From Auanema rhodensis (Eukaryota; Animalia; Nematoda), in NCBI GenBank assembly GCA_964057225.1, contig OZ059896.1:11470001-11534000 (forward strand): 64,000 bases of DNA. Direction: 5' to 3'. The translations under genes and the position numbers were made by a program. The notes below the pieces were generated by a model. The model ran no database searches and had not been told where the DNA came from. It worked only from the letters and a program-made list of their open reading frames with translations. This document shows positions 30,846 through 64,000 of this stretch, piece after piece. The first letter of the stretch is position 1. Each line of letters opens with the position of its first letter.

Positions 30846-30924
30846 AATCAACCACTCGTAAATGTACCTATAATGCAAATGATTTCATTTATACTAGTGC
30901 GCACGCATCAGGTGGTGGTCTGTG

Positions 30925-31782: not shown

Positions 31783-31787
31783 ATGTT

Positions 31788-32252: not shown

Positions 32253-32293
32253 TAGAGGAAAATAAAAAACAACCACACACAGTCAACTCACTT

Positions 32294-32464
32294 TTATATA
32301 ATGAGTGGAATAATGACTAGTGTTGTACAAAAGCCTAGTCCCAGAGATATTCCTTTAATGAATGGCACTGAAATACGTTTCAAAATCTTTTTGTACAGGG
32401 GTGTTGGCACAGATTGTTCCAACGTGTATCTTATACATAATTCACAGTGACAGGGAATATTCAT
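32294..32464 (-). CDS. B2 56-aa CxCxxC protein with hydrophobic tail
   Basis: MNIPCHCELCIRYTLEQ...GLGFCTTLVIIPLII, translated by hand. Confidence 0.65.
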   Translation of the reverse strand: MNIPCHCELCIRYTLEQSVPTPLYKKILKRISVPFIKGISLGLGFCTTLVIIPLII

Positions 32465-32510
32465 AACTGACCACCTAATGTAGCAGGTGACGTTTTAATG
32501 GCGAGGTTGA

Positions 32511-32966: not shown

Positions 32967-33016
32967 TTAGTAAAATGATCTAGTGTAACTTTTGTATTGC
33001 GCACGTGCGGTTCAAT

Positions 33017-33469
33017 ATGCCACACCTTCTTCTAGACTTGAACTCAATTCAATGGACAACACTTTTGAATCAACAAATGGGTGGGGCGCCATTTAGTGGA
33101 ATGATGTTTCAACGTGGTATGCAGAGAGGTCATGGCCTGGGTGGTATACTGGCAACATTGGCATCGTTTTTACCACGCATTATTCAATCACCTATAGCCC
33201 AAAATCTCATCAATGCTGGAAGGAATGCATTATCCAGTGCTGTAAGCAATAGTCCAGTTGTAAATTCACCTCTTGGCGGCCAGTTGCTAAAAACTAGCAA
33301 TGAAATTGTTGATGGGGTGCTCAAGGGCGATAATATCAAGCAAACTCTTAAAACAGCCGGCCGGCAGGCTATACGAGATCTTACCGGTTTGGGCAAGCGG
33401 CGACGACGCAAAACCACAAAACCTCATAAGCGTCTGTGCATAACTCGTGAGCGGTCGTATCGTATTTAA
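33017..33469 (+). CDS. B2 putative core protein
   Basis: Homolog of 8049-8501. Confidence 0.65.
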   Translation: MPHLLLDLNSIQWTTLLNQQMGGAPFSGMMFQRGMQRGHGLGGILATLASFLPRIIQSPIAQNLINAGRNALSSAVSNSPVVNSPLGGQLLKTSNEIVDGVLKGDNIKQTLKTAGRQAIRDLTGLGKRRRRKTTKPHKRLCITRERSYRI

Positions 33470-34804: not shown

Positions 34805-34942
34805 TGTATGTAATAAACTCTTTAAAACATTTGATGAGAAGAATAAAATTTATTAATACAACTATACATAAAAATCTATAAATACAACCATATACAAATA
34901 TACACGCGATAATAAAATTTATAAATTCAAATATATTAAAAA

Positions 34943-40556: not shown

Positions 40557-42156
40557 TGTATCTTGTTAGAATAAAATTATGCAAACTCTGAGAGGTAGTT
40601 ATCCATATTTCATTTTACACATTTATATTACACTTCATTGCAAGAACAGTCAGTTGTTTTATTGTCACGTAACAATGTTGCCAACACTCAACATTGTATC
40701 ATATTACAGCTGTCAACAGTGGCAGTTGCCAATCCGCTGTTAATAAATACGCATGTATTGTTGTGGTCAGCGCAACTGTTTCAACAATCTTATCGAATTA
40801 ATCTTCGATATGTGTTCTTTGAGTTAGGGTATTAGAATATTAGTAATATACACACTAAAACTTTTTCTATATACTCTTCTTTCCATGTAATTTGAGAATA
40901 TTAGAAATCTTGATGCATATGCTATACAGCTATTTGTTATACTTTAATGAACAAGTGCTTTGCCATTTGGTTCATTGTAGGTCAACGTATCTGTTTCACC
41001 AATCTTATCGAATTGATATTCGATATGTGTTCCATTAACATTTTTGATACTAAAAAACTATATACCCATGACCCCTTGGCATAGTAAGTATTCTTTAGCG
41101 TTATGGGTACTTGTGCTGTACAGCTATTTATCATATTTTTATGAACAAAACTTTTGCCATGTGGTACATGTGTGGGGCAGCGCACCTGTTTTAACGATCT
41201 TATCGAATTAATCTTCGATATGTGTTCCATTGGAAACAACACAATTGTTTGTGAATCCTATCGAATTAACCTTCGATATGTGTTTTATTGAGTTAGTATA
41301 TTAGAATATACTAATATAAAATTTAAAAAAAAAAAGGTTCTTTAAACTATTCTTTCATGTAATTTGAAAATATTAGACAACTTGGTACATGTGGTGTACA
41401 GCTATTTATCATATTTTTATGAACAAAACGTTTGCCATGTGGTTCTTGTGTGGGTCAGTGCACCTGTTTTAACGATCTTATCGAATTAACCTTCGATATG
41501 TGTTCCATTAACTTTTGTATTTCATATCTTTCTTATCGAATTAACTTTCGATATGTGTTCCATTAACTTTTGTATTTCATATCGTTCTTATCGAATTAAC
41601 CTTCGATATGTGTTCCATTAATTAACCCATAAGAGGTACGGTGAACATATTTATTAGCTTTGAAAAATATTCAAATTTTATAAATTAAAACAAACACAAT
41701 ATATATTAAAAAGTTTATTCAAATGTATATATATTAAAAATACATTTAAAAGGAGATAATTTTAATAATATTTTAAAAATATATAAAATACATTTAAAAA
41801 AGAAATAATTAAATAATAATATTTAAAACATATATTAATAATAAAAATTCATTTAAAAAGAAATAAGTTTAAAAATATTTACAAATACAATTAACAAATA
41901 TATAAATAATAAAAATTCATTTAAAATAATACATTAAAAAATAATTTAAAAAAAAAAAAATCATGCGTTTTGATCCATGCGCAGGCTCGAGAGCCTGCCT
42001 CGGGAGGAAAAGTATATTTTTGACAGCTGACGCCGAAAATATGATTTTGACAGCTGACGCCCCCAAAAGTATGTTTTTAGCAGCTGACGCCCTCAAAAGT
42101 ATGTTTTTAGCAACTGTTTGGGGGCGTGGTTAGTAAATTCGGCATGGCTCTCTACT

Positions 42157-43891: not shown

Positions 43892-44356
43892 ATGGAACTT
43901 TTATGTAACAAATATTGTGGTACATGCAAGGAAATATTTTCTTCAACCAAGCATTTTAGTGATCACGTTTTGAAAAGACATGCAGGGATTCAACCCATAT
44001 GTAACAATTATATCAGCAATGCTGACTTTATTCAAAAATATGGACATTTGGATGGTGTTCGTAGACGTTTGTGCCCTCATTGTAGTGAAACTTTTGGAAC
44101 AAGATTCAATTGTGAGCGTCATATTCGGCGTATTCATAATAATAATGGAACGAATGGTGAAGATGGTGATGGAAATGATACCAGCAAACCCTTTGAAAAA
44201 GCTGAGGAGTTTGTACATTCAACCCAATCAAAAAGATGCCGCAGCAATAGTGACGGAGAACATTCACAACACGAGCCGAGCGACAAACAAAACTGCCCTA
44301 AACTATCTTTTAAACCTTCGAAAATAAAAATGTGGTATTGTATAACTGTTGAATAA
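43892..44356 (+). CDS. A2 C2H2 zinc-finger protein (overprinted ORF at 43980-44327)
   Basis: Identical proteins to A1. Confidence 0.75.
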   Translation: MELLCNKYCGTCKEIFSSTKHFSDHVLKRHAGIQPICNNYISNADFIQKYGHLDGVRRRLCPHCSETFGTRFNCERHIRRIHNNNGTNGEDGDGNDTSKPFEKAEEFVHSTQSKRCRSNSDGEHSQHEPSDKQNCPKLSFKPSKIKMWYCITVE

Positions 44357-44361
44357 AACGT

Positions 44362-45219
44362 TTATTTCATATTTTTAACATGTAATGTAACAACTGTAGA
44401 ACCATAATTAAATTGCATAGGACGACCAAATTCATCTAAAATTTCAATACGTATGGTATCGAGTGTTTGTCTAGTGATTGGTACATAACGAATAGGATTA
44501 AATGTTTTGGCAATCATTTTACCAAATTCAGTAGGAGGTGGTACAGGTAAACATGCAAGTAAATTAGCTTTCACATTACCAAGAATGGAATATTCTACAA
44601 TATCACAATATATATACATTGTATTAATGTTATTTGAAAAATCAATGGGACGCCTGGCTATTATTGTATCGTTGATGTTTTTATTTTCAAAACCAAGAAA
44701 ATATGCAAAATCATCACCAAGCGTTGCATTCATTAATAGTCGCTTGCTTGTTACAAACTCTATGCGCTGCAGTGTTTTGTTAAACTGAAATGTGGCGTCC
44801 GCGAGCATTTCCTCCACTAGCTTAGCCTCAGCCTGGCGATTATTATACCATTTTTTTACATCTTCATCTTTATCTATTAAACTTTTTATACGTGCTTCTT
44901 CCTCAGCTCCAAGAGGCTTTGTATTGTTGGCGATAAATGATTCTCTTCCAGCGTTGATTCCGCGTATTATTTCATCACCATTTGCATAGTTGCCTTTAGG
45001 CAAGTGTAGAATAAATTTTCTATTGGAAAAACGTAGTGTATAAGATAAATCTTTTTGAACATTTAATATAGAACAAGGAAAAATGATGTCTGTCAGCCCA
45101 ATGCAATATCTATTATTGCGTAGCCTTAGTGTTTCAGGTAATCTGGTAAGAAACACTGATGATGTATTACTTTTTTCAGAGTCAACTGATGATGGAAGAG
45201 TAATGTAAAAATCATCCAT
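44362..45219 (-). CDS. A2 minor capsid (penton)
   Basis: Identical protein to A1. Confidence 0.88.
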   Translation of the reverse strand: MDDFYITLPSSVDSEKSNTSSVFLTRLPETLRLRNNRYCIGLTDIIFPCSILNVQKDLSYTLRFSNRKFILHLPKGNYANGDEIIRGINAGRESFIANNTKPLGAEEEARIKSLIDKDEDVKKWYNNRQAEAKLVEEMLADATFQFNKTLQRIEFVTSKRLLMNATLGDDFAYFLGFENKNINDTIIARRPIDFSNNINTMYIYCDIVEYSILGNVKANLLACLPVPPPTEFGKMIAKTFNPIRYVPITRQTLDTIRIEILDEFGRPMQFNYGSTVVTLHVKNMK

Positions 45220-45298
45220 GACAAACCACCACTTGATACGTGTACACTATTGCAAATGAAATCATTTGCATTTTAGGTACATTTACGAGTGGTTGATT

Positions 45299-45946
45299 AT
45301 GGTTTTCAGCTTCAAACTACCCAGTCAGACAACTGTAATAGGTGCTACCCAATGCGGTAAAACAACCCTCATAAAGCACATATGTGAAAATACTGAAAAG
45401 TTTTTCAACGTCCCCATTGATAGAATATTCTGGTTCAGTCAATGTGGGTCATCGTCAGGTGTACCAATAAATGATGAGCGTTTAATAATCATTCAAGGGC
45501 CTCCTGATCCTGATTTGATAAAAGAACAAAAGGGAGTAAATACTATACTAGTGCTGGATGATTTGATGAACTTTTTTTCATCGAATAAAGCAGCAAAGGA
45601 ATTACTCAACAACATTTTTACAGTATGGGCTCATCACTGGAATTTGGCAGTGTTTAATCTTGTGCAAGCGGCATTTCAACTGGACAGGACCAGTCGAATC
45701 AATAGTACATATATAATACTGATGAAAAGTCATTCAGATATATTACAAATACGTAATTGTCTGCAGCAATTATTTGGGCCACGTTTCAAAAATGCTCTAG
45801 AGGCGTATGATGATGCAATGTCTACTCCCTATAGTCATTTACTGATTGACAATCATCCTTTAACAAGTGAGAAGCACCGTATACTATCTGATATAACAGC
45901 GGAGAACCCTATTGTTTATGTTGCCAGAAATGTGTTTAGTGTTTAA
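45299..45946 (+). CDS. A2 packaging ATPase
   Basis: Walker A and B. Confidence 0.92.
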   Translation: MVFSFKLPSQTTVIGATQCGKTTLIKHICENTEKFFNVPIDRIFWFSQCGSSSGVPINDERLIIIQGPPDPDLIKEQKGVNTILVLDDLMNFFSSNKAAKELLNNIFTVWAHHWNLAVFNLVQAAFQLDRTSRINSTYIILMKSHSDILQIRNCLQQLFGPRFKNALEAYDDAMSTPYSHLLIDNHPLTSEKHRILSDITAENPIVYVARNVFSV

Positions 45947-45958
45947 AGTGCTTGTTCA

Positions 45959-46267
45959 ATGAGTGGTCGTATTTTGTCAAATTTCAACTTTTTGTCTTCT
46001 TGCGCCAAAACTCCTTGTTCTGTTTCCTCATTTTCTTTTGCACAAATTGAAATTATTGTTGAAATTGTATTTAATATTGTGAAAAATAATAATTTTCTTT
46101 TAACTAACAAGGAATATAAAACCCTCTTGCCCATATCTTCATTATTACGTCAAATAGCTTTGATACGCACACCGGAAAAGGCTAAATCATTATTGGCAAC
46201 GCTTTCACACAAACAATTGAAAACAATAGTTACATGTGGTATTGCCTATTTTGGTTTTAAATCATGA
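45959..46267 (+). CDS. A2 hypothetical protein (102 aa)
   Basis: Identical protein to A1. Confidence 0.7.
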   Translation: MSGRILSNFNFLSSCAKTPCSVSSFSFAQIEIIVEIVFNIVKNNNFLLTNKEYKTLLPISSLLRQIALIRTPEKAKSLLATLSHKQLKTIVTCGIAYFGFKS

Positions 46268-46980
46268 AGCTCAACCATAAATATCGACTAATTCCTGTCG
46301 ACGAGGAAACAATTAATATAGACAAGTTTGATGCAGAGCTCAAGCTTTTACGAGAAAATAGAGCTATACCCGACTATAAAAAGGCTGAACTATACGAAGA
46401 CTTGATTGCTCGTCTCAAAAACTATAGAGAAAGTATAGATGCGCCCATATCAGTACAAGTGGAAAATGTTGATTCACCTCTATTGCCAGAATACAAGTTG
46501 CCAAGAAAGTATAACAATTTGTGGGAGAAATTTCCAGAGGTGCGCACAAACAAGAATAACCAACTTGTGATTAATAATGAGGCTGTACCAAACACGAATA
46601 TTACAAAAATTTTAGATTTTGTATTGGATAAAACAAAAACGGAGCCCAATGGATTTTCAGTCTTGTCAAAGTTTTTAGCCAGTAAAGGCGTACCAAGTTC
46701 TAACAAGAAACAAACTAGAAGAGAGTCGGCTGACAATGATTCAGTTGACGTTGTAACTAGAGCTGAACCGGCTGTTACAGACTTGGACTCTACTATATTA
46801 CCTAGAACGCCTCGTCATCGTAAAGCTGTTATTCGATATTCACCATCACCGGTTCGTACACTCAAAAGTAAAAGGTCAAAGACTTTTGATACTGCCGCCG
46901 AATCATATTACACACCACAAGAAGGAGACTCACAGAATGGCCAAGGTCGTAAAAGGTTCTACATTAGATTATGGAAATGA
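46264..46980 (+). CDS. A2 hypothetical protein (238 aa)
   Basis: Near-identical to A1. Confidence 0.75.
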   Translation: MKLNHKYRLIPVDEETINIDKFDAELKLLRENRAIPDYKKAELYEDLIARLKNYRESIDAPISVQVENVDSPLLPEYKLPRKYNNLWEKFPEVRTNKNNQLVINNEAVPNTNITKILDFVLDKTKTEPNGFSVLSKFLASKGVPSSNKKQTRRESADNDSVDVVTRAEPAVTDLDSTILPRTPRHRKAVIRYSPSPVRTLKSKRSKTFDTAAESYYTPQEGDSQNGQGRKRFYIRLWK

Positions 46981-48004
46981 TATTTTGGCGAGCATTTATT
47001 ACGATATAAAACACCCAGCTTCATATACATCAGCCAAGAATTTATTATCGCAAGCACGAAAACATGGCATTTCAAAGGTACAAGTTGATGATTTTTTGCA
47101 AGATTCTGAAACTTTTACACGACATAAACCAACCAGAATGCGTATGCAGACTAGAAAGACTAGAGGATGTGGTCGATTTCTAACAGTGCAAGCAGATTTG
47201 GTTGATATGCAAAAATATAAAAAATTAAACGACGGCTATGCTTACATGTTGACCATGATTGATGTTTATACACGCATGTTATATGTTAGGCCTTTGAAAA
47301 CTAAAGGTGGTATAGAGGTTGCTAGTGCATTTGAAAGTTTATTCAAGAATTTTATACCAATTCAGTTGATTACTGATAATGGCACAGAGTTTTATAATAG
47401 TCATTGTGAAAAACTATTCAAAAAGTTTGCCATACTGCACGGATCTACAAGTTCACCACAAAAGGCTGCAATGGTGGAGCGAGCAAATAGAACTTTAAAA
47501 ACACGCATGATGAAATATCTCTATTACAAGAATAATCATCGTTGGATTGATATCCTAGATGATTTGGTTGAAGGAATAAACAAATCTTATAACCGCTCTA
47601 TAAAAATGCGGCCCATTGATGTTAAAGCAAATATATTCATTGAAGAATATGCACCAGCTGTTAAAAGCCGCTTTAAAATTGGTGATACTGTTCGCATAAG
47701 CAAAAATAGGCGTACTTTTGAAAAAAGCTACGAGTCTGGATATACAATGGAGCTGTTCACAATTGATGAGGTTGTAACCGGAAACCCAACCGTGTATAAA
47801 CTTGTAGATTATAATGGTGAACGTATAAAGGGAATATTCTACGAACCTGAACTTGTCTTGGCTACTAATAAAAGCAACAAGTACTATATAGAAAAAGTTT
47901 TAAAAGAGCGTACTCGAAGCGGTAAACGTCAAGTATTTGTAAAATGGAGTGGATATCCCGACAACTTTAATGAATGGATAGATGCAGAAAATTTAAATGT
48001 ATAA
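46937..48004 (+). CDS. A2 RVE integrase with chromodomain
   Basis: Near-identical to A1. Confidence 0.95.
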   Translation: MAKVVKGSTLDYGNDILASIYYDIKHPASYTSAKNLLSQARKHGISKVQVDDFLQDSETFTRHKPTRMRMQTRKTRGCGRFLTVQADLVDMQKYKKLNDGYAYMLTMIDVYTRMLYVRPLKTKGGIEVASAFESLFKNFIPIQLITDNGTEFYNSHCEKLFKKFAILHGSTSSPQKAAMVERANRTLKTRMMKYLYYKNNHRWIDILDDLVEGINKSYNRSIKMRPIDVKANIFIEEYAPAVKSRFKIGDTVRISKNRRTFEKSYESGYTMELFTIDEVVTGNPTVYKLVDYNGERIKGIFYEPELVLATNKSNKYYIEKVLKERTRSGKRQVFVKWSGYPDNFNEWIDAENLNV

Positions 48005-50638: not shown

Positions 50639-51900
50639 TACGTCAGAGAAAACCAAAGTTTCGTTGATTTGTAGAGTAGGGATATCAGAAGAGTCTTTAC
50701 CAAGTCGTTCGCGACAGAATTGAAAAAATGCTTTTGAATTGTTGGTAGAAGCTATGTTGTTTTCATCAATGGCAGATTTGAGTTTGATGAGTTTATCTAA
50801 GGTGACAGATCGCTTTTTGCGAAGAAGCTCATCCTGAGCGAAAAGAGAGTTGCTTAACCGGTTAACACGATTGTTAAGTTTCTGAATGTCACGATCAAGT
50901 TTTTTTCTTTTCTTTGCCTTTTTGAATGGGACACAGCTTTGAATTATTGATTGGACAATTGCAATAAACTTAGAATAGGAAGTTATAGCGTTTAGACCAC
51001 ATAATTCAGTAGCGAAGTCAATGCCAGCTAAAAGGCTATTTATTTTTCGGCCGAGAAAAAGTTACGACTAGAAAAAGAGGAAGAGAGAGAAGAGGGCCTG
51101 GAAGTAGCAACTTTGTTGATTTGAGCAAATGTGAGAGGATCCAAAATAATGTTGAAGAAAACCGAGTAATGATCAGATTGGCCAAGAGGGCTATTGCGAG
51201 AAATGTTCTCTACACAGTGAACACTGTTGGTGATAATGTAATCCAAGATGTTTTTACCTCTGGTTGGGAAAGTAACTAATTGACTGGATGAAGACTGTTG
51301 AAGAAAGTTGAGAATAGATGAAGTAGAGGGGGAACTGCTTGACGAATGGATGAGATCCCAGTCAATGTGAGGGAAATTAAGATCGCCTGTTAAGAAAAAC
51401 CTGCGGTTCGAGATAAGAGTTTGAAATTCGGTTAGAAAAAAAAGAAAGTCAGAGTGCTGAGATGATGGAGAACGATAGCAGATTGAGAAAACGACGTCAG
51501 AAGGTATAATGAGAACATTTAGGTATTGAACAGTTGATTGAGAAGGAGAGCATGAGAGAAGACGACTATTAATGTGTTTTTTAATATAGAGGAGGACTCC
51601 TCCTCCTCGAGAAGTTGATCTGTCATCACGGAAAATGCAGTAAGAATCTCTCAAAGGAAGGGAGCTAGAGTTGAAATCAGGAAACAGCCAGGTCTCAGAT
51701 ATAGCAATAATGTCTGGACAGAGAGTCGAATAAACAATTGGTATTAAGTGTAATTTATTGACAATAGATCGTGCGTTATAACAAGAGACTGTAATTTTAC
51801 TACATGCAGCAGTAGAGATTGTTGATTGGAAATTAACGAAAGGATGTTTGGCTGGGCAGATTGGACGGGGAATTAGGCAAAGTAGATGTATTTCTAACAA
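50639..51900 (-). pseudogene. LINE ORF2 N-terminus: APE endonuclease, frameshifted at about 51045
   Basis: NARSI, ISETW, GGGV, YRSP, GDLNFP, LDYI and SDH motifs. After the shift it reads INSLLAGIDF...CVPFKK...NSKAFF...IPTL up to the A2 junction. Confidence 0.85.
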
Positions 51901-52370
51901 TGTTAGCAGTAGGATCTGGAACAGATTTAGCTCGGCGAGAAGGGTTTTTTCTTCTTCTTTGGCTGCTACATCTTTCTTTGTTTATTGGAGCGGGCTGTCC
52001 CTTAGTTATAGGCCGGCCTCTTCTACCAGATTTAGACGGGGGACTAGAATCAAGGTCATGCGTAAAAATAGGCATGTCAGACATTGGAGCAATGCATGAA
52101 TTGGTAGTTTCAGAGTCCATGCCTGTAGGGGAAACAACATATTTAACACTGGATGTGTCTTTTGGGGCAGTGCCTGTGTTGGTGAGTCTACGAGGTACTT
52201 TTATAAGCTTTAGATCTCGAACAAGAAAAATGAATTCAGTGTCGTCAGAGTTTTTGCTTTTGGCTTCGTCACGAAGCCGTTTTTCTAGTTCCACCTCAAA
52301 GGGTAGATAATCACGACGAACGAATGTTTTGGATAGTGAGTTGGAAATTTTAGGTTTGTGAGATCTTATA

Positions 52371-53771
52371 CAGTCCTGTGCGAAATAGTTGGGACAACCA
52401 AAAAGAGAGGCCAGACGGCGAAACTCAAACTACAAAAAAATCAAAAAATTTAATTTAGTTTTCAGGTTGAAGTAGCAACATATTGATTAAAAAACAAGTA
52501 ACAATGATGAAAAATGAAATTTTCGAAATTTATATAAGTTTAAAATTAAATATAATGCTTTTTTGGTTGTTTTAAAAGATGAAAAATTAAAATTTATAAT
52601 TTAAGATGGTTAGAGGCAAGAAAACTACTCCAGAGCTTCGAAGCCTCATTATCGAAAAGAAAAATGAAGGGCTGACCGTACGAAAGATTAGTGAGATGCT
52701 GGGAATCCCGAAGAGTACGATTCAGAATGTTTGGACCAATCAAAACCAAGCTGAACAGAACGAAACCAGGGGAAGAAAGAAAAAGACAACAGTAGGACAA
52801 GATTCTTTAATTATTAAACTCGTAGAAAGACATCCGGATATGACGTCGTTAGAGTTAAGCCAGCATGTCCTACGAATGTTCAAGATTCGTCTACATCCTT
52901 CTAATATACGACGAAGATTGTTGTCGAAAAACCTAAGAGCTCGTGTTCCAGCTCGGAAGCCTCTGATATCCGTTGTTAACAGGCAGAAGAGGATTGCGTT
53001 TGCGCAAAAGCATCTGAATTGGACGTTCGAACAGTGGTCCTCCGTTATATTCACCGATGAAAGCAAGTTTTGCTTATTTGGAAACGACGGACCAGGATTC
53101 GTGAGAAGACCACCAAACCAGCGATTCAACCCCAAATTCATGCGACCTACGGTGAAGCATGGTGGCGGCAACGTCATGATTTGGGGCTGTTTTAGCGCTT
53201 CCGAAGTTGGGCCACTTTATCGTGTTGAAGGCAGGATGTGTGCCGAGGATTACCAGAATATCTTACGAACCTGCTTCCTGCCGTATGCTGTTATGAAGTT
53301 TGGAACTAGAATTAGGTTCATTCTTCAGCAGGACAATGATCCGAAACACACAGCTCGTTCGACTACTAAGTTCCTAGAAGAAAATCGACTGAATGTGCTA
53401 CAATGGCCTAGCCAGTCTCCAGATCTGAATCCCATTGAGCATCTTTGGAGTGAACTTGGTCGACGTGCATCCAAGTTTCCCTGTTCCAACAAAAATGAGA
53501 AGTTCAAAGTTCTCAGTACCCTCTGGTTAGAAACATCACCGGATATTCTAAAGAAGCTCGTCGAATCAATGCCCAGAAGACTTCAAGCAGTGATAGATAA
53601 TTTTGGATATCCGACAAAATATTAATAAATGTGTTTATTTACAGTTTAATTTTTATTTATTGATGCTATGGAGTCTTTCATACTCATACTATTTTTTCTG
53701 AGTCATTTGTAGTTTGTTTCATAGCATACGAGAGAGTACTGTGTTTGTCCCAACTATTTCGCACAGGACTG
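52371..53771 (+). mobile_element. Tc1-family DNA transposon (1401 bp)
   Basis: 27-bp perfect TIR CAGTCCTGTGCGAAATAGTTGGGACAA; TA TSD at 52369-70 and 53772-73. Confidence 0.97.
52606..53625 (+). CDS. Tc1 DD34E transposase, intact and intronless
   Basis: N-terminal HTH, GRKKK, FTDESKF, QQDND and SPDLNPIE with 34 residues between D and E. Confidence 0.96.
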   Translation: MVRGKKTTPELRSLIIEKKNEGLTVRKISEMLGIPKSTIQNVWTNQNQAEQNETRGRKKKTTVGQDSLIIKLVERHPDMTSLELSQHVLRMFKIRLHPSNIRRRLLSKNLRARVPARKPLISVVNRQKRIAFAQKHLNWTFEQWSSVIFTDESKFCLFGNDGPGFVRRPPNQRFNPKFMRPTVKHGGGNVMIWGCFSASEVGPLYRVEGRMCAEDYQNILRTCFLPYAVMKFGTRIRFILQQDNDPKHTARSTTKFLEENRLNVLQWPSQSPDLNPIEHLWSELGRRASKFPCSNKNEKFKVLSTLWLETSPDILKKLVESMPRRLQAVIDNFGYPTKY

Positions 53772-55651: not shown

Positions 55652-56052
55652 TGTAATATCCTTGATTTGGATATTAATGTTCCATGTTATTGACCCTTAG
55701 ATTGATGTGTTGTAAAAGAAACAATAAGATTTGAGGAAGAGAGAAAGATTTATTATAAATAAAAAACATTTAAACAATAAACAAATAAAGATAAAGATAA
55801 GTCCGCCAACTGAAGATTCAGTTGAATGGCAAGCTTATATAGCGAATGTTATCAGCATTTTCCACGAAAGGTTATAAGTTGTCAATGACAATTATAACTA
55901 TCTCGGAAAATGCTGAAGCTGCAAAATATAACTGATAACATAATACACTAAGACAAGAAACTAGAATTATAAAATATAAAATATAAAACACAGAATAAAG
56001 AAATACATAAAAATTATAGAAAGAATAAAGTAAAGAATTATAAAGTATAACA
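55652..56052 (-). repeat. 3' LTR (401 bp)
   Basis: Minus strand TGTTATAC...TATTACA; preceded by a PPT-like tract; abuts A3 sequence. Confidence 0.8.
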
Positions 56053-56109
56053 TGCTACCGCTCTTGAAGTCCTGTGTCCTCACAGGTATGCATAAGGTTT
56101 TCAAAATTT

Positions 56110-56345
56110 TCATAATGTTGCAGCAAGCTTTTTGATGAGATCCTTATGTACTTTTCTCATCTTTCCTTGACTCATTTCCAATTCCACATATGAGTTGTAT
56201 ACGCCTGTAATTTTGAACGGTCCATTATAAGTGGGTCGCGATTTGCCGTGAACCGTCATATCCTTTAATAGTACCATTTCACCTATTTCAAATATACGTG
56301 ATGCTATTCGGTTACTATTATTCAGCCGATTTTGTTGTTCAATTG
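56110..56345 (-). pseudogene. Integrase C-terminal GPY/F remnant, out of frame with the polyprotein
   Basis: Hand translation: RIFEIGEMVLLKD...PTYNGPFKITGV...RKVHKDLIKKLAATL*. Confidence 0.8.
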
Positions 56346-59300
56346 GAATGAACGAATAGCGGTGACCGTTTTGGGAGTTGGAAATTTCTTAACGGCTGTA
56401 ATTTTTGATGGATCAGGTTGTATTCCATCACGACCAATTATAAATCCAAGAAATTTAACTTGTGTAGCTGCAAATTTGCATTTACTTAGTTTTGCTTTCA
56501 TTCCTAATCCTTGTAAAGCTTGTAACACTTCTTCTATATCCTCCAGATGTTGTTCAGCTGTGTTTGATATAATGAGTAGATCATCCAGATAAACAAAAAG
56601 TCGACATTTTACTTGATTTTGCAAATAGCGAACAGCTGATTGAAATGTATGTGGAGCTCCACAGAGACCCATCGGCATTCTGCAATATTGATAAACTCCT
56701 GATGAGGTCACAAATGCAGTGAGGTGACGGTCTTCTTCACGTAAAGGAATTTGAAAAAATCCCGATACGAGATCGATGTTTGTGAAGTATCGAGCTCCTG
56801 CAGTGCTGTCGATTATTTCTGGTATATGAGGAATAGAATAAGTCTGTTTCTGTGTGACACTATTGAGTGCACGGAAGTCCGTTACAAAGCGGAATGAGTT
56901 GTCTTTCTTCTTGACTAAGACGACTGGACTTGTAAAACTTGATGTTGATGTTTCTATTACTCCTTGGTCCAGCATTTCTTTTACTTGACGTTCAACTTCA
57001 TCCTGTTTACCCAAAGGAACTCGATATGATCGAGATTTGGGCAGGTCCATATCGGTTCTCAAAGTGATTGAATGTTCTATTGGTCCTTTGAATAATCCAA
57101 TGTTCCGATCTTCGTTAAAAAAAGCATTTTTGAATCTTCTCAACATAGTTTTGAGATTTTGACGTTGATTTTTAGATAGATCCGTTGATTCGAATTTTAA
57201 GTTATCGAAAGGAATCTTCTCAAAAATAGGCAATTTATCTGACCAATCAGCTTCTGGTGGAATATAGTCCGGTATATGTGGGATTCCAATTTCTTCTGCT
57301 ATTTTTCCTTTTCCAATAATGGTGTTTCCTGTTAACTCCACCTCATAATTTGCTGTATTGATGGCGAATATTGTGAGTGGTGAAGTCTTGATAGCAGTAG
57401 GTGTGAATTGAATAGGTCCATTTCCACATCGTATAAGAGCGTATTGTTTTGGTTGTAGTTCTTTTGCCAATTGTAGACGAATCATAGCTTTAGTTCGGGG
57501 TGGAATAATAGATTCTCTAATGTTTATAATTGAAACGGTGTCTGAACTGATGCGAAAGCTCTTCTGGTTAGCGGATAATAATGGTAGAAAATGGTTTCCA
57601 ACTATTAATTGCTTGCGTAGAGTTTGTAGAGAAGTTGTTATTCCTTTTTCTTCCAATGCTTTCATGATGTCCAAACCAAGTAACATTTCAGTAGGACAAT
57701 GTTTATCCTCAGAGATTAAAAATGTGTGTGAAAGATGGTATCCAGCAATAACAATGTCCAACGTTATTGTACCCAGAAAGTTGAATATTGATCCATTTGC
57801 TGCGGTGGCAGAGATTTTAGTTGAGTTGAAATTCTCTTTTCCTAAATAGCGTACTGATGATTCCTTCAAATATGAAACAGATGCTCCGCTATCCCATAAA
57901 GCTACGAATCCTCTGCCTTCTGCTTCAATTCTTATATATGGGAGTTCTCTTTTGTTCGTTGCACAGCATCCAACAAAAGGTATAATAATAGGAATAAAAG
58001 TGATGACAGTAGGAAAATATCTTCGAATAGTTTCGTCGTCGGCTGGAACATCGATGTCAGCGTTGAGTAGTTCGTGTTGTTCAACTGCATTCACATTTAA
58101 GATAGGAACTTTCTCTTTGATATAAGATACAACAATAATGTATAATGCTGATCCAAAGATTAATATAACTATCATAACACCTGCAGAGATAAACATTCTG
58201 TTGAGGGATCCAGCAAAGAAATCAACTCCTCGTTCCCATAGTGATGATGCAATATTTTGAGTAGAACTAAAAAGTTCGTTACTTTTTGTAAACCATTCTG
58301 ATAAGCCTGGCAAATTCGCTTGATTCGTGATAACTCGTAGAAAATTTCTATGAGGATTGGTAGCGAAAATGTGTCCATATGTTAGGCTTATTGTTCTAAC
58401 TAAGTTTTCATCGGTGATTTTTTCATAAAGATTTTTTTGTGAAAATCGAATGGCTGCTAGATCGGGATACTGATCTGAACCAATGTTTAAAGCAGTTACG
58501 TTTGTAACTCCGTTGAGGGATTTCCATTCTCCATCCTCTTTCCATATATCATTTTCTACTGTTTCACATGGAATTTCAGTTCCATATGCTTCCAAATCTG
58601 CTGAATCTTGAGGTGCAAAGTAGAGGCGGTCATCATCCGTGATGACGGGTGTTTCTAAATAACACTTATCTTTGTATGTGTGGTTGCGATAAATGTGAAT
58701 TGGTTCTATTGGCTGACAGGTTGAAACCCGAATAAGATTCCGTCCAATTATTCGAGCCACTATATCATCTCGTTGCATAATAGATCTGATAGCAATCGTA
58801 GGATTGATATTAAATATAGCTTGCCATGTCTTAATAAGTTCAAGTTGAGCATGACATATGCTGTGATGTTGATGATGAAATTCTTCGACCAGTATGGTTC
58901 TCATTCGTTCAAATCCATAGTTAAGTTTGTTGATGGTAGTTAATGCATCTCGATGTCGAAGTATAGTATTCTGGTGATCAGTTAAGTGAGTGCCGAATAA
59001 TTCTTGAGCTTTCTCTATGCTTCCAATCATGGGTTGCATTGATGTCATCCCTTGAATAGTACTAATTGTTTGTTTTGTAGTAGATGATGTATTTACAACA
59101 GGTTTTGAGGTAGCACTAAGAAATCGTGCAGTTGGCGTAGTTTTAGTGGTGATAGAGCGACTGAATACTCTTTTTGTAATCTCTTCAGGTGCTGGTTTTG
59201 AAAACCATGACAGTAAATCAGTTAATTGTTTAGCGTCAATGTTGATGTTACGGCTGTAGAGATCTTCTTTATTCGAAGGCATCGGTATTCCAAAAATGGT

Positions 59301-62033
59301 TTCTCGGTTTCTGAGTGTCCAGTTATCCAACAGCTTTAATTTCATTTCAAATACTTGATCTTTCACTTGTCGTTGTATAAAATGACTATGAAAGAACAGT
59401 TTCATTCGATAATATTCTATCAGTTGAGGTTGAGAATACTGATAGCGTAGTTCACGAAGTAATTCTTTTGCTTTATATACCACAGAACGTGGATCTCCAA
59501 ATGTGAAGTTGAGATGGTTTTGATATACTGTGAATATCAAAAATTCGAGTGGTGGCACATATTCTGTTTCGGATAAGATTGCAGGTATTTGTATCAATTC
59601 CCATAATTTATCTCTTGCAACCGAAATTGTAGAATTGCCTGGTTTAACTATTCTTTTTATATAATTGATAGGAAGTCGGTGTGCTAGTTGACCGATGACA
59701 AAACTAGGCTCCATTTGTTCGATCCACATTTTTGTAATCATCTTGCTTTCTTCTCCTCCTAGAGCATGTAGTAAGAGAATATTCGGATCGCGGAAGTCTT
59801 TTAAATTTGCCCAGTAATCTATAGTATGATCAGTAATGTTCAAAATATGGACAGCTGACAGCAAAAATTGATGATATCGAGCAATAACAGTCAGGTTCTG
59901 ATATTCGTTGCTAACTGATTGATAGTGATACCAGTTATGAATATATCGTATGGTATTTCCGCCAGACGTGACAGTATATCTAGCAAACGGTAGATCCAAT
60001 ATTTGAATAGGAGTTAACTTATATTCCATTTCTGAGCGAAATGACGCAATTAAGGATGAATTTGTTGAACGTTTATAGCGTTGGCGTGAAGGATCCATTT
60101 GATAATCCAAATAACTTGTTAGATCCAGTAGAGAATATGCATGCGGATAATCAATAAACGAGACAAGAGTCTCAGTAGTGGATTCAAAAATTGGTGAAGA
60201 AAAACAAGATTGAGTTGTAGTAGATGCTGAGGTGTTGGCTAAGACAAGTGCTGTTTCTAGACTTGATATTAGCAGTGTTTGATCTCCAAGTATTCCATAC
60301 AGAGGTCCAATACGTGTGTATTGGCATAGTGCTCGGGGTGTGGGTGGTTTCCAAACTACTGAACCATCTCCAAATGTACAGCTTCCCATTTGAGCTTTAC
60401 AGCCTTCTGCGTTGACAATTAAGTCAGATACAATAGTATTGTCTTTTAAATTTGTAATAACTCCTCGCTCCATCACAAATTGAGTTAAGTTGGCGCATTG
60501 AGTAAAACTGAAGAAACGTTCCGGTTCATATACTGGCTTAGGAGCTTCATATGTAAGTGGATTAGCGCTCAACAGTTTTTCATTATTCCATTTCTTGTCT
60601 CGAGCAGCTATACGGCATTCTTCTACAGATACATATCCATTACCAATGATGGTGTCATTGCTTTCTCGGAACCAAAATTGATCCGTTACACATAATCGAT
60701 AGATGCGTGTATAACATTTCCACGCTTCCCATGTTACGACGGTTTGTTTAGGAATGAACAATTCAACGTTAACTTGATGAGCTTGTTGAATTGCTTTCCG
60801 TTGGCATCCTGTTATCTCTGGTGGTGTCATCAGAATTCCTCCTTTATGAGCTAAACATAGTTGATATGAAGCATTCACAGTGGGAAGCAAAAATGTGCAG
60901 ATTATTGTTGTGAGCAGGTATGGTAATGCAATAGTATTTATATTGAATCGAGGTTTCCATCGTCTTTGATTGCCTTGATTCTCTCTTGGATAATTGTCTC
61001 TATTTTCTCTTGGATAGTTGTCTCTATTTTCTCTTGAGTAGTTGTCTCCTCGAGATTCTCTTGGATGGTTGTTGCGATTATTTCTAGAAAAGGTGTCTTG
61101 ATTTTCTCTTTGATAATTGTTGCGAGGTTCTCTCGAATGATGATGACTCTCCATTGAGTAGTTGTTTCCATAATTTTGTCGAGGGCCAGAGTTCCTGCTG
61201 AATTTATTTTTGAAACTCTTCCAAGGGTTTCTTGAATTGTTGCCATTGTTCCGTTCGAAATCTCGTGGCTGCTGATGGTTCCTTTGGTTACTATTTTCCT
61301 TCATGGTGATCTTCTGAACTGCAGAAATCAACTCTTGCATAGTTGAGTTTTCTTCATGCTGTTTCTTATAGTTAGCACGCATTGCTTCTTCAAAACGTGC
61401 TGTCCTTTTTGCTTCCTCATAAGTCTTCGGATCTTTTCCTTGAACAATTATGCCTAAATCAGCGTTCAATCCATTTAAGAAAGCTGATCTTAATATGTGC
61501 TCTCTTTCTCGATCAGTTGGGCTCATAATACTGGAAGCCATTTCATCCAAGTATGAGGCAAACTGAGTAACAGTTTTCTCTCCTTGCGTCGAGCGTAGCA
61601 ACTTCGCGATCGTGAAATTCCTTTCCGTGGCAGGGCAAAGTAACTCTGCCAATTGTGAAACAAGGTCTTTCCAAGGCCCTCGTTCACGAATTTCGAAAGG
61701 AATCGAGTTATATGCAGAGATCGCAGAATCATTCTGCTGAAGCAGCAGAGGAAGAAGAAAAATTCTTTCAATTACCGAAAGTCCAGCAGCATTCGCGAAT
61801 CGGTTAAATATATCGATGTACGATCGAAAGCTTTGGCTACCATCAAATTTGGGGCAGTGTGGACTGCCTAGAACTTTTGTTAAGTTTTTGGTCAACTCTG
61901 GAGATGCCATTAAATTAGGCGTTTCCAGAGTTGAATCTCTGTTTGATTGCTCATGTGGTCTCATGTTGAGTAGGAGCTTCAGAGGTAGTTTTTCGCGCTG
62001 GGGAGTTTTTTCTTTTTTCGGTGTTACAGCCAA
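56322..62033 (-). CDS. Polyprotein Gag - signal peptide - gB-like class III glycoprotein - TM - aspartic protease - RT (truncated before RNase H)
   Basis: Gag PKFDG, QGEKTVTQF and FLNGL; protease LWDSGAS and LLGLD; RT SPVVLVKKKD, DFRALN, MPMGL and YLDD; env motifs ICHAQ...NINPT...ARIIG...VSTC and CYLETPV. Confidence 0.88.
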   Translation of the reverse strand: MAVTPKKEKTPQREKLPLKLLLNMRPHEQSNRDSTLETPNLMASPELTKNLTKVLGSPHCPKFDGSQSFRSYIDIFNRFANAAGLSVIERIFLLPLLLQQNDSAISAYNSIPFEIRERGPWKDLVSQLAELLCPATERNFTIAKLLRSTQGEKTVTQFASYLDEMASSIMSPTDREREHILRSAFLNGLNADLGIIVQGKDPKTYEEAKRTARFEEAMRANYKKQHEENSTMQELISAVQKITMKENSNQRNHQQPRDFERNNGNNSRNPWKSFKNKFSRNSGPRQNYGNNYSMESHHHSREPRNNYQRENQDTFSRNNRNNHPRESRGDNYSRENRDNYPRENRDNYPRENQGNQRRWKPRFNINTIALPYLLTTIICTFLLPTVNASYQLCLAHKGGILMTPPEITGCQRKAIQQAHQVNVELFIPKQTVVTWEAWKCYTRIYRLCVTDQFWFRESNDTIIGNGYVSVEECRIAARDKKWNNEKLLSANPLTYEAPKPVYEPERFFSFTQCANLTQFVMERGVITNLKDNTIVSDLIVNAEGCKAQMGSCTFGDGSVVWKPPTPRALCQYTRIGPLYGILGDQTLLISSLETALVLANTSASTTTQSCFSSPIFESTTETLVSFIDYPHAYSLLDLTSYLDYQMDPSRQRYKRSTNSSLIASFRSEMEYKLTPIQILDLPFARYTVTSGGNTIRYIHNWYHYQSVSNEYQNLTVIARYHQFLLSAVHILNITDHTIDYWANLKDFRDPNILLLHALGGEESKMITKMWIEQMEPSFVIGQLAHRLPINYIKRIVKPGNSTISVARDKLWELIQIPAILSETEYVPPLEFLIFTVYQNHLNFTFGDPRSVVYKAKELLRELRYQYSQPQLIEYYRMKLFFHSHFIQRQVKDQVFEMKLKLLDNWTLRNRETIFGIPMPSNKEDLYSRNINIDAKQLTDLLSWFSKPAPEEITKRVFSRSITTKTTPTARFLSATSKPVVNTSSTTKQTISTIQGMTSMQPMIGSIEKAQELFGTHLTDHQNTILRHRDALTTINKLNYGFERMRTILVEEFHHQHHSICHAQLELIKTWQAIFNINPTIAIRSIMQRDDIVARIIGRNLIRVSTCQPIEPIHIYRNHTYKDKCYLETPVITDDDRLYFAPQDSADLEAYGTEIPCETVENDIWKEDGEWKSLNGVTNVTALNIGSDQYPDLAAIRFSQKNLYEKITDENLVRTISLTYGHIFATNPHRNFLRVITNQANLPGLSEWFTKSNELFSSTQNIASSLWERGVDFFAGSLNRMFISAGVMIVILIFGSALYIIVVSYIKEKVPILNVNAVEQHELLNADIDVPADDETIRRYFPTVITFIPIIIPFVGCCATNKRELPYIRIEAEGRGFVALWDSGASVSYLKESSVRYLGKENFNSTKISATAANGSIFNFLGTITLDIVIAGYHLSHTFLISEDKHCPTEMLLGLDIMKALEEKGITTSLQTLRKQLIVGNHFLPLLSANQKSFRISSDTVSIINIRESIIPPRTKAMIRLQLAKELQPKQYALIRCGNGPIQFTPTAIKTSPLTIFAINTANYEVELTGNTIIGKGKIAEEIGIPHIPDYIPPEADWSDKLPIFEKIPFDNLKFESTDLSKNQRQNLKTMLRRFKNAFFNEDRNIGLFKGPIEHSITLRTDMDLPKSRSYRVPLGKQDEVERQVKEMLDQGVIETSTSSFTSPVVLVKKKDNSFRFVTDFRALNSVTQKQTYSIPHIPEIIDSTAGARYFTNIDLVSGFFQIPLREEDRHLTAFVTSSGVYQYCRMPMGLCGAPHTFQSAVRYLQNQVKCRLFVYLDDLLIISNTAEQHLEDIEEVLQALQGLGMKAKLSKCKFAATQVKFLGFIIGRDGIQPDPSKITAVKKFPTPKTVTAIRSFQLNNKIG

Positions 62034-62376
62034 GTGTGTTGGCGTTTTTTCGTCGTCCGATGGACTTAAATCGTTGTCAAACGAGTCGTCACTATCGGGA
62101 AAAGGAAATCGAGAAATACGATTTCTCTTGTCTCTTAATCTTTGAGAGGTACGGAAAGGCGTATCCGTATAATTATTCTTGGAGGTTGCCGTTTTGGAAA
62201 AGGAGAAAAGTCAGAACAATCTACAATGTAAAATAGTGGAATAAGTTAGTAAACAAGATAAGAATATGAATAGTTAATAGTGAATAAATTAGTGAATAAC
62301 ATGAAAAAAAAATCGAAGAAAAAAAAAGATATATAATAATATGGGTTGAAGATTAATTAATTAATGAATTCAGTTA

Positions 62377-62924
62377 ATGGAACACATATCGAAGGTTAAT
62401 TCGATAAGATCGTTAAAACAGGTGCACTGAACCACACAAGAACCACATGGCAAACGTTTTGTTCATAAAAATATGATAAATAGCTGTACACCACATGTAC
62501 CAAGTTGTCTAATATTTTCAAATTACATGAAAGAATAGTTTAAAGAACCTTTTTTTTAATTTTATATTAATATATTCTAATATACTAACTCAATAAAACA
62601 CATATCGAAGGTTAACTCGATAGGATTCACAAACAATTGTGTTGTTTCCAATGGAACACATATCGAAGATTAATTCGATAAGATCGTTAAAACAGGTGCA
62701 CTGAACAACACAAGAACCACATGGCAAACGTTTTGTTCATAAAAATATGATAAATAGCTGTACACCACATGTACCAAGTTGTCTAATATTTTCAAATTAC
62801 ATGAAAGAATAGTTTAAAAAACCTTTTTTTTAATTTTATATTAATATATTCTAATATACTAACTCAATAAAACACATATCGAAGGTTAATTCGATAGGAT
62901 TCACAAACAATTGTGTTGTTTCCA
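62377..62924. repeat. 274-bp tandem duplication
   Basis: Units start at 62377 and 62651, with the next boundary at 62925; B2 has a single copy. Confidence 0.85.
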
Positions 62925-63597
62925 ATGGAACACATATCGAAGATTAATTCGATAAGATCGTTAAAACAGGTGCGCTGACCCACACATGTACCACATGGCA
63001 ATAGTTTTGTTCATAAAAATATGATAAATAGCTGTACAGCACAAGTATCCATAACGCTAAAGAATACTTACTATGCCAAGGGGTCATGGGTATATACTTT
63101 TTAGTATCAAAAATGTTAATGGAACACATATCGAATATCAATTCGATAAGATTGGTGAAACAGATACGTTGACCTACAATGAACCAAATGGCAAAGCACT
63201 TGTTCATTAAAGTATAACAAATAGCTGTATAGCATATGCATCAAGATTTCTAATATTCTCAAATTACGTGGAAAGAAGAGTATATAGAAAAAGTTTTAGT
63301 GTGTATATTACTAATATTCTAATACCCTAACTCAAAGAACACATATCGAAGATTAATTCGATAAGATTGTTGAAACAGGTGCGCTGACCACAACAATACA
63401 TGCGTATTTATTAACAGCGGATTGGCAACTGCCACTGTTGACAGCTGTAATATGATACAATGTTGAGTGTTGGCAACATTGTTACGTGACAATAAAACAA
63501 CTGACTGTTCTTGCAATGAAGTGTAATATAAATGTGTAAAATGAAATATGGATAACTACCTCTCAGAGTTTGCATAATTTTATTCTAACAAGATACA

Positions 63598-64000
63598 ATG
63601 GCTGCTAACAGGTTGTGTTTTTTCTTATCTTTTTTTAAATTAAAATATTTATTTTCAGTTATAAGCGTGTATGTGAAGAGTTGGGGTTCGATTATGAGGA
63701 AATTTATCAACTCAGGTAATTTAACCATATTTTTAAAATATACATCTTTGTTTTTTTTTAGTAAGCGCATAAAGCTTACCGAGAGTGGTGGTGCTGAGCT
63801 CTGTGACCCCGCAATAACCACTTCCAATAGTGGTCCCTCGTCATCAAGGGTTATTGAAGTTATCACCTTGGATGACAGCGATAATGAGTAAGCTATCGTA
63901 TAATGAAAAAGCATGAAATTTTTTTTTCAGAGAATGGAATCCCGAGATGCCATCAACTAGTGGAGAACAATTAGGAGGCGGTTCATCCTTCAACGATATT
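63598..64000 (+). CDS. B4 pPolB exons 1-4 (partial)
   Basis: ATGGCTGCTAACAG|GT, TTTCAG acceptors, VIEVITLDDSD. Confidence 0.8.

What the first reader, a model, noticed from the sequence alone, without database searches (positions are those of the whole stretch)
56322..62033. Gypsy polyprotein with a herpes-gB-like fusogen embedded between Gag and protease
Seen: one uninterrupted ORF containing a Gag capsid domain, an R/N-rich linker without CCHC, a signal-peptide-like stretch (IALPYLLTTIICTFLLPTVNA|SYQLC, about 60935-60870), a Cys-rich ectodomain of about 900 aa, a TM helix (about 58200-58120), then DSG protease and RT. Known: the pattern ICHAQ...NINPT..IRSIM...VARIIG...VSTC...CYLETPV...EIPC resembles the herpesvirus gB pattern WC..Q...INP...A...G...V..C...CYSRP..E.C. 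Retroelement env genes, including gB-like ones in nematode BEL/Pao elements, normally lie downstream of integrase. Inference: the protein would thread into and back out of the ER like a flavivirus or alphavirus polyprotein, with Gag and Pol cytosolic, Env luminal, release by signal peptidase and 1:1:1 stoichiometry. This would be an enveloped, potentially infectious metavirus with an unusual gene order. I cannot exclude that this layout is already described.
Basis: partly seen in the sequence, partly recalled or inferred. Interest (0 to 1): 0.88.

Follow-up and report, generated by a model that had tools for sequence, protein, structure and literature searches.

The report
Broken nematode envelope-carrying retrotransposon
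This is a damaged copy of an already described kind of virus-like jumping gene, likely of a roundworm, whose single long protein carries a predicted membrane-fusion protein between capsid and enzymes; the likely new detail is an extra, unidentified domain inside that fusion protein, which might help particles attach to cells.

Summary
Observation confirmed: one 1,962-codon frame (62210-56322, minus strand) encodes Gag, a signal peptide, a gB-type class III fusogen (profile E 2e-15 to herpes gB; model matches prefusion gB, Z 12.8), one TM helix, protease and RT. The layout is not new: GAG-ENV-POL with gB-type Env is published for nematodes (eLife PMC13524379, citing Sacco 2022) and in-frame for planarian Burro, and this scan found it before on flatworm DNA. 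Env precedes PR/RT in 43 of 44 relatives holding both. Added here: (1) a [VI]N-x-[VIL] motif flanks Env on both cytosolic sides, suggesting release by the element's own protease, not by signal peptidase alone; (2) a second hydrophobic stretch before protease is probably not a membrane pass (3 of 29 distant relatives have one); (3) a 300-residue helical insert of unknown fold follows the furin-type site, shared by a rhabditid subclade. Infectivity and 1:1:1 stoichiometry are untested. New member of a known kind.

The parts
56322..62210 (-). Single stop-free frame, 1,962 aa: Gag - signal peptide - gB-type Env - TM - spacer - protease - RT, ending at an internal deletion
61227..61910 (-). Gag capsid-like region (aa101-328); likely start Met aa101 (61910) or aa83 (61964)
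   Evidence: Retrotrans_gag aa177-249; BLAST to relatives' Gag aa100-328, E 3e-19; Met positions
60942..61226 (-). Arg/Asn-rich, partly repetitive Gag tail without CCHC; a 75-nt in-frame length variant exists in other runs
   Evidence: sequence; no CCHC in query or in four close relatives; joint 60998-61074 in 2 of 4 runs
60930..60941 (-). INTI motif (aa424-427), predicted retroviral-protease site releasing Gag from the signal peptide
   Evidence: one of only two matches of [VI]N[ASTN][VIL] in the protein; same place in 7 of 8 close relatives; 7 of 30 in a further set against 1.9% expected. Function inferred.
60870..60932 (-). Internal signal peptide (aa427-447), predicted cleavage before S448
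   Evidence: hydropathy 1.92; signal-like stretch in 26 of 30 relatives holding gag and env. SignalP not available.
60069..60869 (-). Env N-terminal block (aa448-714), beta-rich, gB domain I/II-like, 10 conserved Cys; ends in the furin-type site RYKR (60080-60069)
   Evidence: model pLDDT 80-98 over model residues 1-260; structural match to gB and rhabdovirus G; Cys conservation
59166..60068 (-). About 300-aa Cys-free, predicted all-helical insert of unknown fold, shared by a subclade
   Evidence: no Pfam family, no significant PDB sequence match; homologous inserts in P0121, P0008, P0003, P0001, P0205, P0137, P0133; absent from P0002, P0004, P0005; model helices, pLDDT 72-80 for model residues 341-420, mostly under 50 elsewhere
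59031..59165 (-). Thr/Ser-rich linker
   Evidence: 29 S/T in aa1001-1100; pLDDT under 50
58185..59030 (-). Env C-terminal block: long central helix, domain III/IV-like region with 4 conserved Cys, membrane-proximal helices
58128..58184 (-). Transmembrane helix (aa1343-1361), predicted stop-transfer
   Evidence: hydropathy 2.75; equivalent helix at 2.48 or more in 28 of 29 relatives
57945..58127 (-). Cytosolic spacer: VNAV motif (aa1373-1376, 58094-58083; predicted protease site), acidic stretch, Pro-rich hydrophobic segment (aa1399-1417, 58016-57960)
57651..57941 (-). Aspartic protease, DSG at aa1440
56346..57113 (-). Reverse transcriptase, YLDD at aa1874 (56591)
56344..56345 (-). Internal deletion junction: RNase H, integrase zinc finger and core (about 520-550 codons in relatives) are missing
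   Evidence: contigs of 3 of 4 runs continue past 56345 with other sequence (table 8)
56110..56344 (-). Integrase C-terminal tail, out of frame with RT
   Evidence: ORF 56110-56388; BLAST to C-termini of 4 of 7 relatives tested, best E 7e-8
55685..56072 (-). Purine-rich tract (about 56072-56053) and probable 3' LTR, TGTTAT at 56052 to ATAACA at 55685 (368 bp, AATAAA at 55754); a shorter end at 55847 is also possible
   Evidence: raised depth over 55768-56084; no second copy in the window
62372..64000 (.). Repeat shared with the ends of the Maverick-like copies in the window, standing where the 5' UTR and 5' LTR should be
   Evidence: 96% match to 40150-41559; a contig of run X1 leaves the window at 62372 and goes on for 234 nt

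Best explanation
This is a deleted, 5'-truncated copy of a Ty3/gypsy element whose one reading frame encodes Gag, a predicted gB-type fusion protein and the start of Pol, likely from a rhabditid nematode and of the published GAG-ENV-POL kind. Likely working of an intact family member: Gag is made in the cytosol; the internal signal peptide starts translocation, so Env enters the ER; the single TM helix stops transfer and Pol is made in the cytosol again. Signal peptidase would free the Env N-terminus, furin would cut at RYKR, and the element's own aspartic protease would cut at the (V/I)N-x-(V/I) motifs just before the signal peptide and just after the TM helix. Until then Gag and Pol would stay tethered to the same membrane as Env, which would couple capsid assembly to envelopment without a matrix-type membrane anchor. 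The Pro-rich hydrophobic segment before protease most likely lies on the cytosolic face rather than crossing the membrane. Shown: frame, domain order, fold class, family-wide conservation, deletion. Inferred: topology, all cleavages, particles, fusion. This copy cannot transpose on its own.
For: Fold: profile of 64 sequences hits herpes gB at E 1.8e-15 and rhabdovirus G at about 1e-6; model mean pLDDT 70.2; all 35 listed Foldseek PDB rows are herpes gB, best E 1e-10; VIA best EBV prefusion gB Z 12.8, rmsd 6.0, 373 aligned; all 14 ectodomain Cys conserved. Order: 9 of 120 listed RT relatives carry a gB-type domain, upstream of PR/RT in all 9; of 149 further Env relatives, 44 hold Env and PR/RT in one protein, Env first in 43; 30 hold Gag and Env, Gag first in all 30; 13 hold all three. 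RT tree: SH-aLRT 100 clade of 11 rows with Auanema, Caenorhabditis and Heterorhabditis elements (names). Topology: signal-like stretch in 26 of 30; a second hydrophobic stretch (1.6 or more) in only 3 of 29 TM-to-PR spacers. Motif: two matches in the query, both at the junctions; looser form 16.1 per 1000 aa in spacers against 1.2 in ectodomains and 1.7 in Pol. Other runs: no indel listed inside the frame apart from the 75-nt in-frame variant, contigs bridge Gag-signal-Env. Decay: 25 listed differences, 7 synonymous, 18 not, 0 stops. Literature.
Against: No topology predictor was available; hydropathy only. In the query the second hydrophobic segment (2.08) scores higher than the signal peptide (1.92), follows two Arg and ends in a small-residue pattern like a signal peptide, and it is kept in 8 of 11 close relatives. 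The motif was chosen after looking at junctions; the strict form is in only 3 of 30 post-TM windows (p 0.048), and 4 of the 7 pre-signal hits are near kin. No paper confirming this motif as a Ty3/gypsy protease site was found; the likeness to Ty3 sites is recalled. Whole-chain TM-scores are low (0.16-0.17) and pTM is 0.51. Database proteins are gene models and some may bridge introns or stops. The RT tree is a quick tree without bootstrap. No expression evidence.
Confidence: 0.8

Rival explanations
1. Three-pass topology: the segment at aa1399-1417 is a real membrane pass or second signal peptide in this subclade, so Pol made from the full frame would enter the ER in part of the chains, lowering cytosolic Pol relative to Gag and Env (a stoichiometry valve, or a transient pass as in alphavirus E2/6K; comparison recalled).
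For: Hydropathy 2.08, preceded by RR and followed by a small-residue pattern; conserved Pro-rich hydrophobic form in 8 of 11 close relatives.
Against: Three Pro in 19 residues; the aligned segment in distant relatives is a polar Y-x-P motif, hydrophobic in only 3 of 29; several close relatives score only 1.6-1.8; RT and integrase must act in the cytosol and nucleus (established knowledge).
Confidence: 0.12
2. The deletion at 56345 is an assembly mis-join between an undeleted element and an Env-less derivative, not a real genomic copy.
For: A joint from 56345 to 61094 (Gag joined to the integrase tail) in 3 of 4 runs uses the same breakpoint; no listed contig spans the window's junction.
Against: Table 8 is cut (3,979 pieces not shown); the runs differ from the window by about 0.4-0.5% and look like other strains or copies; recombination between the two forms in the animal would give the same pattern; differences show a near-neutral 18:7 ratio, as for a dead copy.
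Confidence: 0.15
3. Env is kept for a cell-internal or cell-to-cell role (membrane tether for assembly, fusion between neighbouring cells), and no free infectious particle is made.
For: No expression or particle data here; PMC13524379 argues for long vertical inheritance.
Against: All 14 Cys and the full fusogen fold are kept at 15-31% identity; an R-x-[KR]-R site lies in the linker of 41 of 87 relatives; the Env of the nematode Atlas element has fusion activity (PMC9094657).
Confidence: 0.25
4. Env is a separate insertion fused in frame only in this copy.
For: None found.
Against: Same order in one protein in 43 of 44 relatives and in named Caenorhabditis and Auanema proteins; same junctions in other runs.
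Confidence: 0.01

Closest known systems
[quoted passage not shown] 2022, PMID 35550022, not held)
   Same: Ty3/gypsy RT, gag-env-pol order, gB-type ENV with signal peptide, TM and conserved Cys, LTR of about 370 bp as in several listed Caenorhabditis elements.
   Different: This copy is defective. Its Env is about 895 aa against about 600 in C. nigoni, C. brenneri and C. remanei relatives because of a helical insert. In the passages read, the eLife text does not discuss polyprotein processing ('polyprotein' 0 occurrences).
Burro / GYPSM1 of planarians (PMC6431247)
   Same: env in frame between gag and pol in one ORF, with hits to mononegaviral fusion glycoproteins.
   Different: Burro is a 4,873-aa polyprotein with CCHC knuckles and many cargo domains; this one is compact and has no CCHC.
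Atlas virus and other nematode belpaoviruses (PMC9094657)
   Same: Single-ORF polyprotein containing Env in a nematode LTR element.
   Different: BEL/Pao RT (YVDN), Env last, class II phlebovirus-like fold; here YLDD, Env in the middle, class III.
Herpesvirus gB and Monjiviricetes (nyami-, chu-, xinmo-like) glycoproteins
   Same: Class III fold; best viral-model hits are Beihai rhabdo-like virus 3 (E 3e-16) and Nyavirus midwayense (E 9e-14) glycoproteins.
   Different: 8-17% identity; embedded in a retroelement polyprotein; no gH/gL or gD partners in the element; extra helical domain after the furin-type site.

Membership tests
Ty3/gypsy (Metaviridae) | RT of the Ty3/gypsy type (YxDD, clusters with gypsy RTs) | tested here: met
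   YLDD aa1874; nearest relatives carry Retrotrans_gag, gag-asp_proteas, RT_RNaseH, Integrase_H2C2, rve; tree has no named reference elements
Ty3/gypsy (Metaviridae) | Pol order PR-RT-RH-IN | tested here: met
   PR, RT, then integrase tail in this copy; full order in relatives
Ty3/gypsy (Metaviridae) | Two LTRs, PBS and PPT | tested here: inconclusive
   probable 3' LTR and purine tract present; 5' LTR and PBS lost from this copy
Nematode GAG-ENV-POL gB-type errantiviruses | ENV between GAG and POL | tested here: met
Nematode GAG-ENV-POL gB-type errantiviruses | HSV/gB-type ectodomain between signal peptide and TM, with conserved Cys | tested here: met
Nematode GAG-ENV-POL gB-type errantiviruses | RT groups with nematode elements of this order | tested here: met
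Nematode GAG-ENV-POL gB-type errantiviruses | Intact element (full RT and integrase in continuous ORFs), the paper's inclusion rule | tested here: not met
   RNase H and integrase core absent: a defective copy of the family, not an intact member
Nematode GAG-ENV-POL gB-type errantiviruses | Cysteine-bridge class (C1a, C1d, C2a, C2c) | not testable with these tools
   defined in figures that are not held
BEL/Pao (Belpaoviridae) with env | YVDN-type RT motif and Env downstream of integrase | tested here: not met
   YLDD; Env upstream of PR (definition)
Class III viral fusogens | gB/G-like domain arrangement | tested here: met
Class III viral fusogens | Trimer and membrane fusion activity | not testable with these tools
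   three ectodomain copies exceed the complex tool's size limit; fusion needs an assay

The most novel reading that the evidence does not exclude
A rhabditid subclade of these elements has built its own attachment protein into the fusogen: a 300-residue helical domain of unknown fold, left by furin at the N-terminus of the membrane-anchored half and held out on a Thr/Ser-rich stalk, doing the receptor-binding job for which herpesviruses use separate proteins. Together with protease sites that keep Gag and Pol tethered to Env until maturation, this would be a one-gene enveloped retrovirus-like design with a self-contained class III entry machine in worms.
Probability: 0.2. Interest if true: 0.62.

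Novelty: new member of a known kind. Interest (0 to 1): 0.3.

Why it matters
The gene order itself is known, and this copy is dead, so the headline claim adds little. What could matter is the processing scheme and the insert. If the protease-site reading holds, it gives a testable answer to how a single open frame can yield cytosolic capsid, a luminal fusogen and cytosolic enzymes; I found no treatment of this in the searches made, though Sacco et al. 2022 could not be read. If the insert binds a receptor, it would show a gB-type fusogen carrying its own attachment domain, relevant to how such elements move between cells or worms.

Tried and rejected
No whole genome is held, so copy number, flanks and full-length copies in this assembly could not be searched. 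Two word-index protein searches with Env alone found nothing; the full HMMER search found 225, so those blanks were a sensitivity limit. Single-sequence PDB search of the ectodomain: 0 hits. Single-sequence AlphaFold model: pLDDT 34, discarded. Insert: no Pfam family, PDB sequence hits only at E 0.3 or worse, Atlas hits for the P0008 insert all under 0.9, best wide structural hit inside the insert Z 5.7 over 53 residues, at background; the insert was not folded alone, so no claim of a new fold is made. No internal repeat in the insert. In-frame slippery heptamers: 8 in the frame, none at the Gag/Env or Env/Pol junctions, so no sign of a frameshift valve. The deletion ends do not read as GT-AG in the window sequence, so splicing was not adopted as the cause. 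No RNA holder listed. The sequence beyond the breakpoint in other copies was not seen, so the cause of the shared breakpoint stays open. The only RNase H/integrase-like hits in the window are the Maverick-like integrases. Literature searches for 'gag-env-pro-pol' (0 papers), for Ty3 protease sites and for signal-peptidase processing of gypsy polyproteins gave nothing usable. No complex prediction was sent. Look-ups of earlier findings by sequence and by place were empty.
Full report
Observation. The minus strand holds one stop-free frame from 62210 to 56322, 1,962 aa. Pfam places Retrotrans_gag at aa177-249, Monjiviricetes_fusion at aa1076-1233 (E 1e-11), Glycoprotein_B at aa1093-1173 (E 2e-4, under its cut-off), an aspartic protease at aa1428-1517 and RT at aa1766-1925. 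The ectodomain has 14 Cys in 897 aa, in two clusters with a Cys-free middle of about 450 aa. The first Met codons are aa83 and aa101.

State of this copy. RT homology ends at aa1955; the frame stops 7 codons later. A separate frame (56110-56388) holds the integrase tail, which matches the C-termini of 4 of 7 relatives tested; in those relatives about 520-550 residues lie between the two points. The only RNase H/integrase-like hits elsewhere in the window are the Maverick-like integrases. A purine tract and a probable 368-bp 3' LTR follow. No second LTR copy is in the window; from 62372 a repeat shared with the Maverick-like copies takes its place. Four of 14 listed public runs were laid. Contigs of 3 of the 4 go on past 56345 with other sequence (1,369, 549 and 549 nt), and one goes on past 62372, so copies without these two breaks probably exist. 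Of the differences listed inside the frame (25 of the 40 rows shown; 121 more rows were not shown) 7 are synonymous, 18 are not and none makes a stop, close to a neutral ratio. A joint from 56345 to 61094 in 3 of 4 runs points to an Env-less derivative that shares the breakpoint; whether the window's junction is a real recombinant or a mis-join is open.

Env fold. A single-sequence model failed. A 64-sequence alignment keeps all 14 Cys. Its profile hits herpes gB at E 1.8e-15 and rhabdovirus G at about 1e-6. The model from it has mean pLDDT 70.2 and pTM 0.51, with the two conserved blocks mostly at 78-98. All 35 listed Foldseek PDB rows are herpes gB (best E 1e-10), but whole-chain TM-scores are only 0.16-0.17. 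VIA-align ranks prefusion gB first (EBV, Z 12.8, rmsd 6.0, 373 aligned), and the unbiased wide search gives five gB chains and then Chandipura G. Among viral models the best hits are Beihai rhabdo-like virus 3 and Nyavirus midwayense glycoproteins, so the nearest kin look mononegaviral rather than herpesviral.

Gene order is a family trait. Of 120 listed relatives of the Env-C/PR/RT region, 9 carry a gB-type domain, and in all 9 it lies before PR/RT in the same protein; these include proteins of C. auriculariae, C. brenneri, C. remanei, C. nigoni and Auanema (12 proteins scanned). A full HMMER search with Env found 225 relatives, 150 listed, 149 new. Of these, 44 hold Env and PR/RT in one protein, Env first in 43; 30 hold Gag and Env, Gag first in all; 13 hold all three. 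These are gene models, so some may bridge introns or stops. A quick RT tree of 67 of 136 available rows puts the query in an SH-aLRT 100 clade of 11 rows, whose named members come from rhabditid nematodes (names). The host is therefore likely a rhabditid nematode (inference).

Topology and processing. A signal-like stretch precedes Env in 26 of 30 relatives and a strong TM follows it in 28 of 29 (one of 30 dropped for lack of a DSG motif). The extra hydrophobic segment is conserved as a Pro-rich motif in 8 of 11 close relatives but reaches 1.6 in only 3 of 29 spacers of the wider set, where the aligned segment is a polar Y-x-P motif. The simplest reading is one signal peptide and one TM, with Gag and Pol in the cytosol; a three-pass form in this subclade is not excluded. 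Signal peptidase cuts on the luminal side, so it can free only the Env N-terminus (established knowledge). The motif [VI]N[ASTN][VIL] occurs exactly twice in the query, at aa424 just before the signal peptide and at aa1373 just after the TM; it is at the first junction in 7 of 8 and in the spacer in 6 of 11 close relatives. In the further set the strict motif is at the first junction in 7 of 30 (1.9% expected; 4 of the 7 are near kin) and at the second in 3 of 30 (p 0.048). A looser form, chosen after seeing the spacers, is in 20 of 29 spacers, 16.1 per 1000 aa against 1.2 in ectodomains and 1.7 in Pol. I read these as sites of the element's protease; the likeness to Ty3 sites is recalled and no paper was found to confirm it. 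No slippery heptamer lies at either junction. Equal output of Gag, Env and Pol is thus the default for this frame but is untested; Cer1 shows that a single-frame nematode element also makes a spliced mRNA (PMC10309623).

The insert. Env is about 895 aa here against about 600 in C. nigoni, C. brenneri and C. remanei relatives. The extra sequence lies between RYKR (aa711-714) and a Thr/Ser-rich linker, is Cys-free and is predicted helical. A local profile finds it, beyond the four sequences that built it, in P0001, P0205, P0137 and P0133, and weakly in P0150 and P0129, so it is inherited in a subclade. It has no Pfam, PDB-sequence, Atlas or structural match above background, but it was not folded alone. 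Furin cleavage would leave it at the N-terminus of the membrane-anchored half. An attachment role is my guess from position alone.

What is known. Chary and Hayashi (PMC13524379; I read the abstract, passages, part 1 of sections 5 and 6, section 22 and 30 Nematoda rows of supplementary file 1, which has 72 occurrences of the word, about 36 rows; figures not held) state that elements of Nematoda, Bryozoa and Platyhelminthes carry only gB-type ENV in the order GAG-ENV-POL, and credit Sacco et al. 2022 for the nematode case. Sacco et al. (PMID 35550022) is not held; I saw its title only, and that it describes one continuous gag-env-pro-pol frame is my recall. [quoted passage not shown] Atlas virus (PMC9094657, passages) is the BEL/Pao counterpart with shown fusion activity. 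The eLife figure supplements, which could not be seen, may already show long-loop ENVs. Earlier notes of this scan report the same layout on flatworm DNA; they gave me the Burro lead and are not independent support.

Verdict. Real feature, correct fold, known layout, dead copy: new member of a known kind, interest 0.3. The parts worth following are the predicted protease sites that bracket Env and the unidentified helical insert.

Noticed in passing
window 2300-20300, 22800-39200, 44300-48000: Several partial Maverick/Polinton-like copies in both orientations: DNA_pol_B_2, an ATPase, and an rve integrase with chromodomain; the 444-aa and 294-aa ORFs have no Pfam hit and are read as capsid proteins by recall only. 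Two subfamilies about 86-92% alike.
   Followed up: partly
window 15797-21296 and 25913-31412: A 5,500-nt inverted repeat, 100% complementary, 4,616 nt apart: recent inverted duplication or an assembly feature.
   Followed up: no
window 2347-6131 and 35773-39176: The Maverick-like polymerase gene is in several ORF pieces in every copy, with short AT-rich stretches that may be introns.
   Followed up: no
window 52600-53625 (+): Tc1/mariner-type transposase ORF of 341 aa, apparently whole.
   Followed up: partly
window 51040-51981 (-): Endonuclease domain of a non-LTR retroelement, fragment.
   Followed up: partly
window 56345 joined to 61094, in runs X1, X2, X5: A joint that skips Env, protease and RT suggests an Env-less, Pol-less derivative with Gag and the integrase tail; depth over Gag is higher than over Env in all 4 runs (depth is no copy number). 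It shares its breakpoint with this copy's deletion. Such derivatives could supply extra Gag.
   Followed up: partly
P0007: A C. auriculariae gene model joins an EF-Tu-family GTPase to one of these elements; probably an annotation fusion.
   Followed up: no
relatives: The stretch between the two conserved Env blocks varies widely (median 89 aa, over 250 aa in 20 of 87); other lineages fill it with Thr-rich stalks (P0011) or unrelated sequence, so this loop looks like a recurring cargo site.
   Followed up: partly
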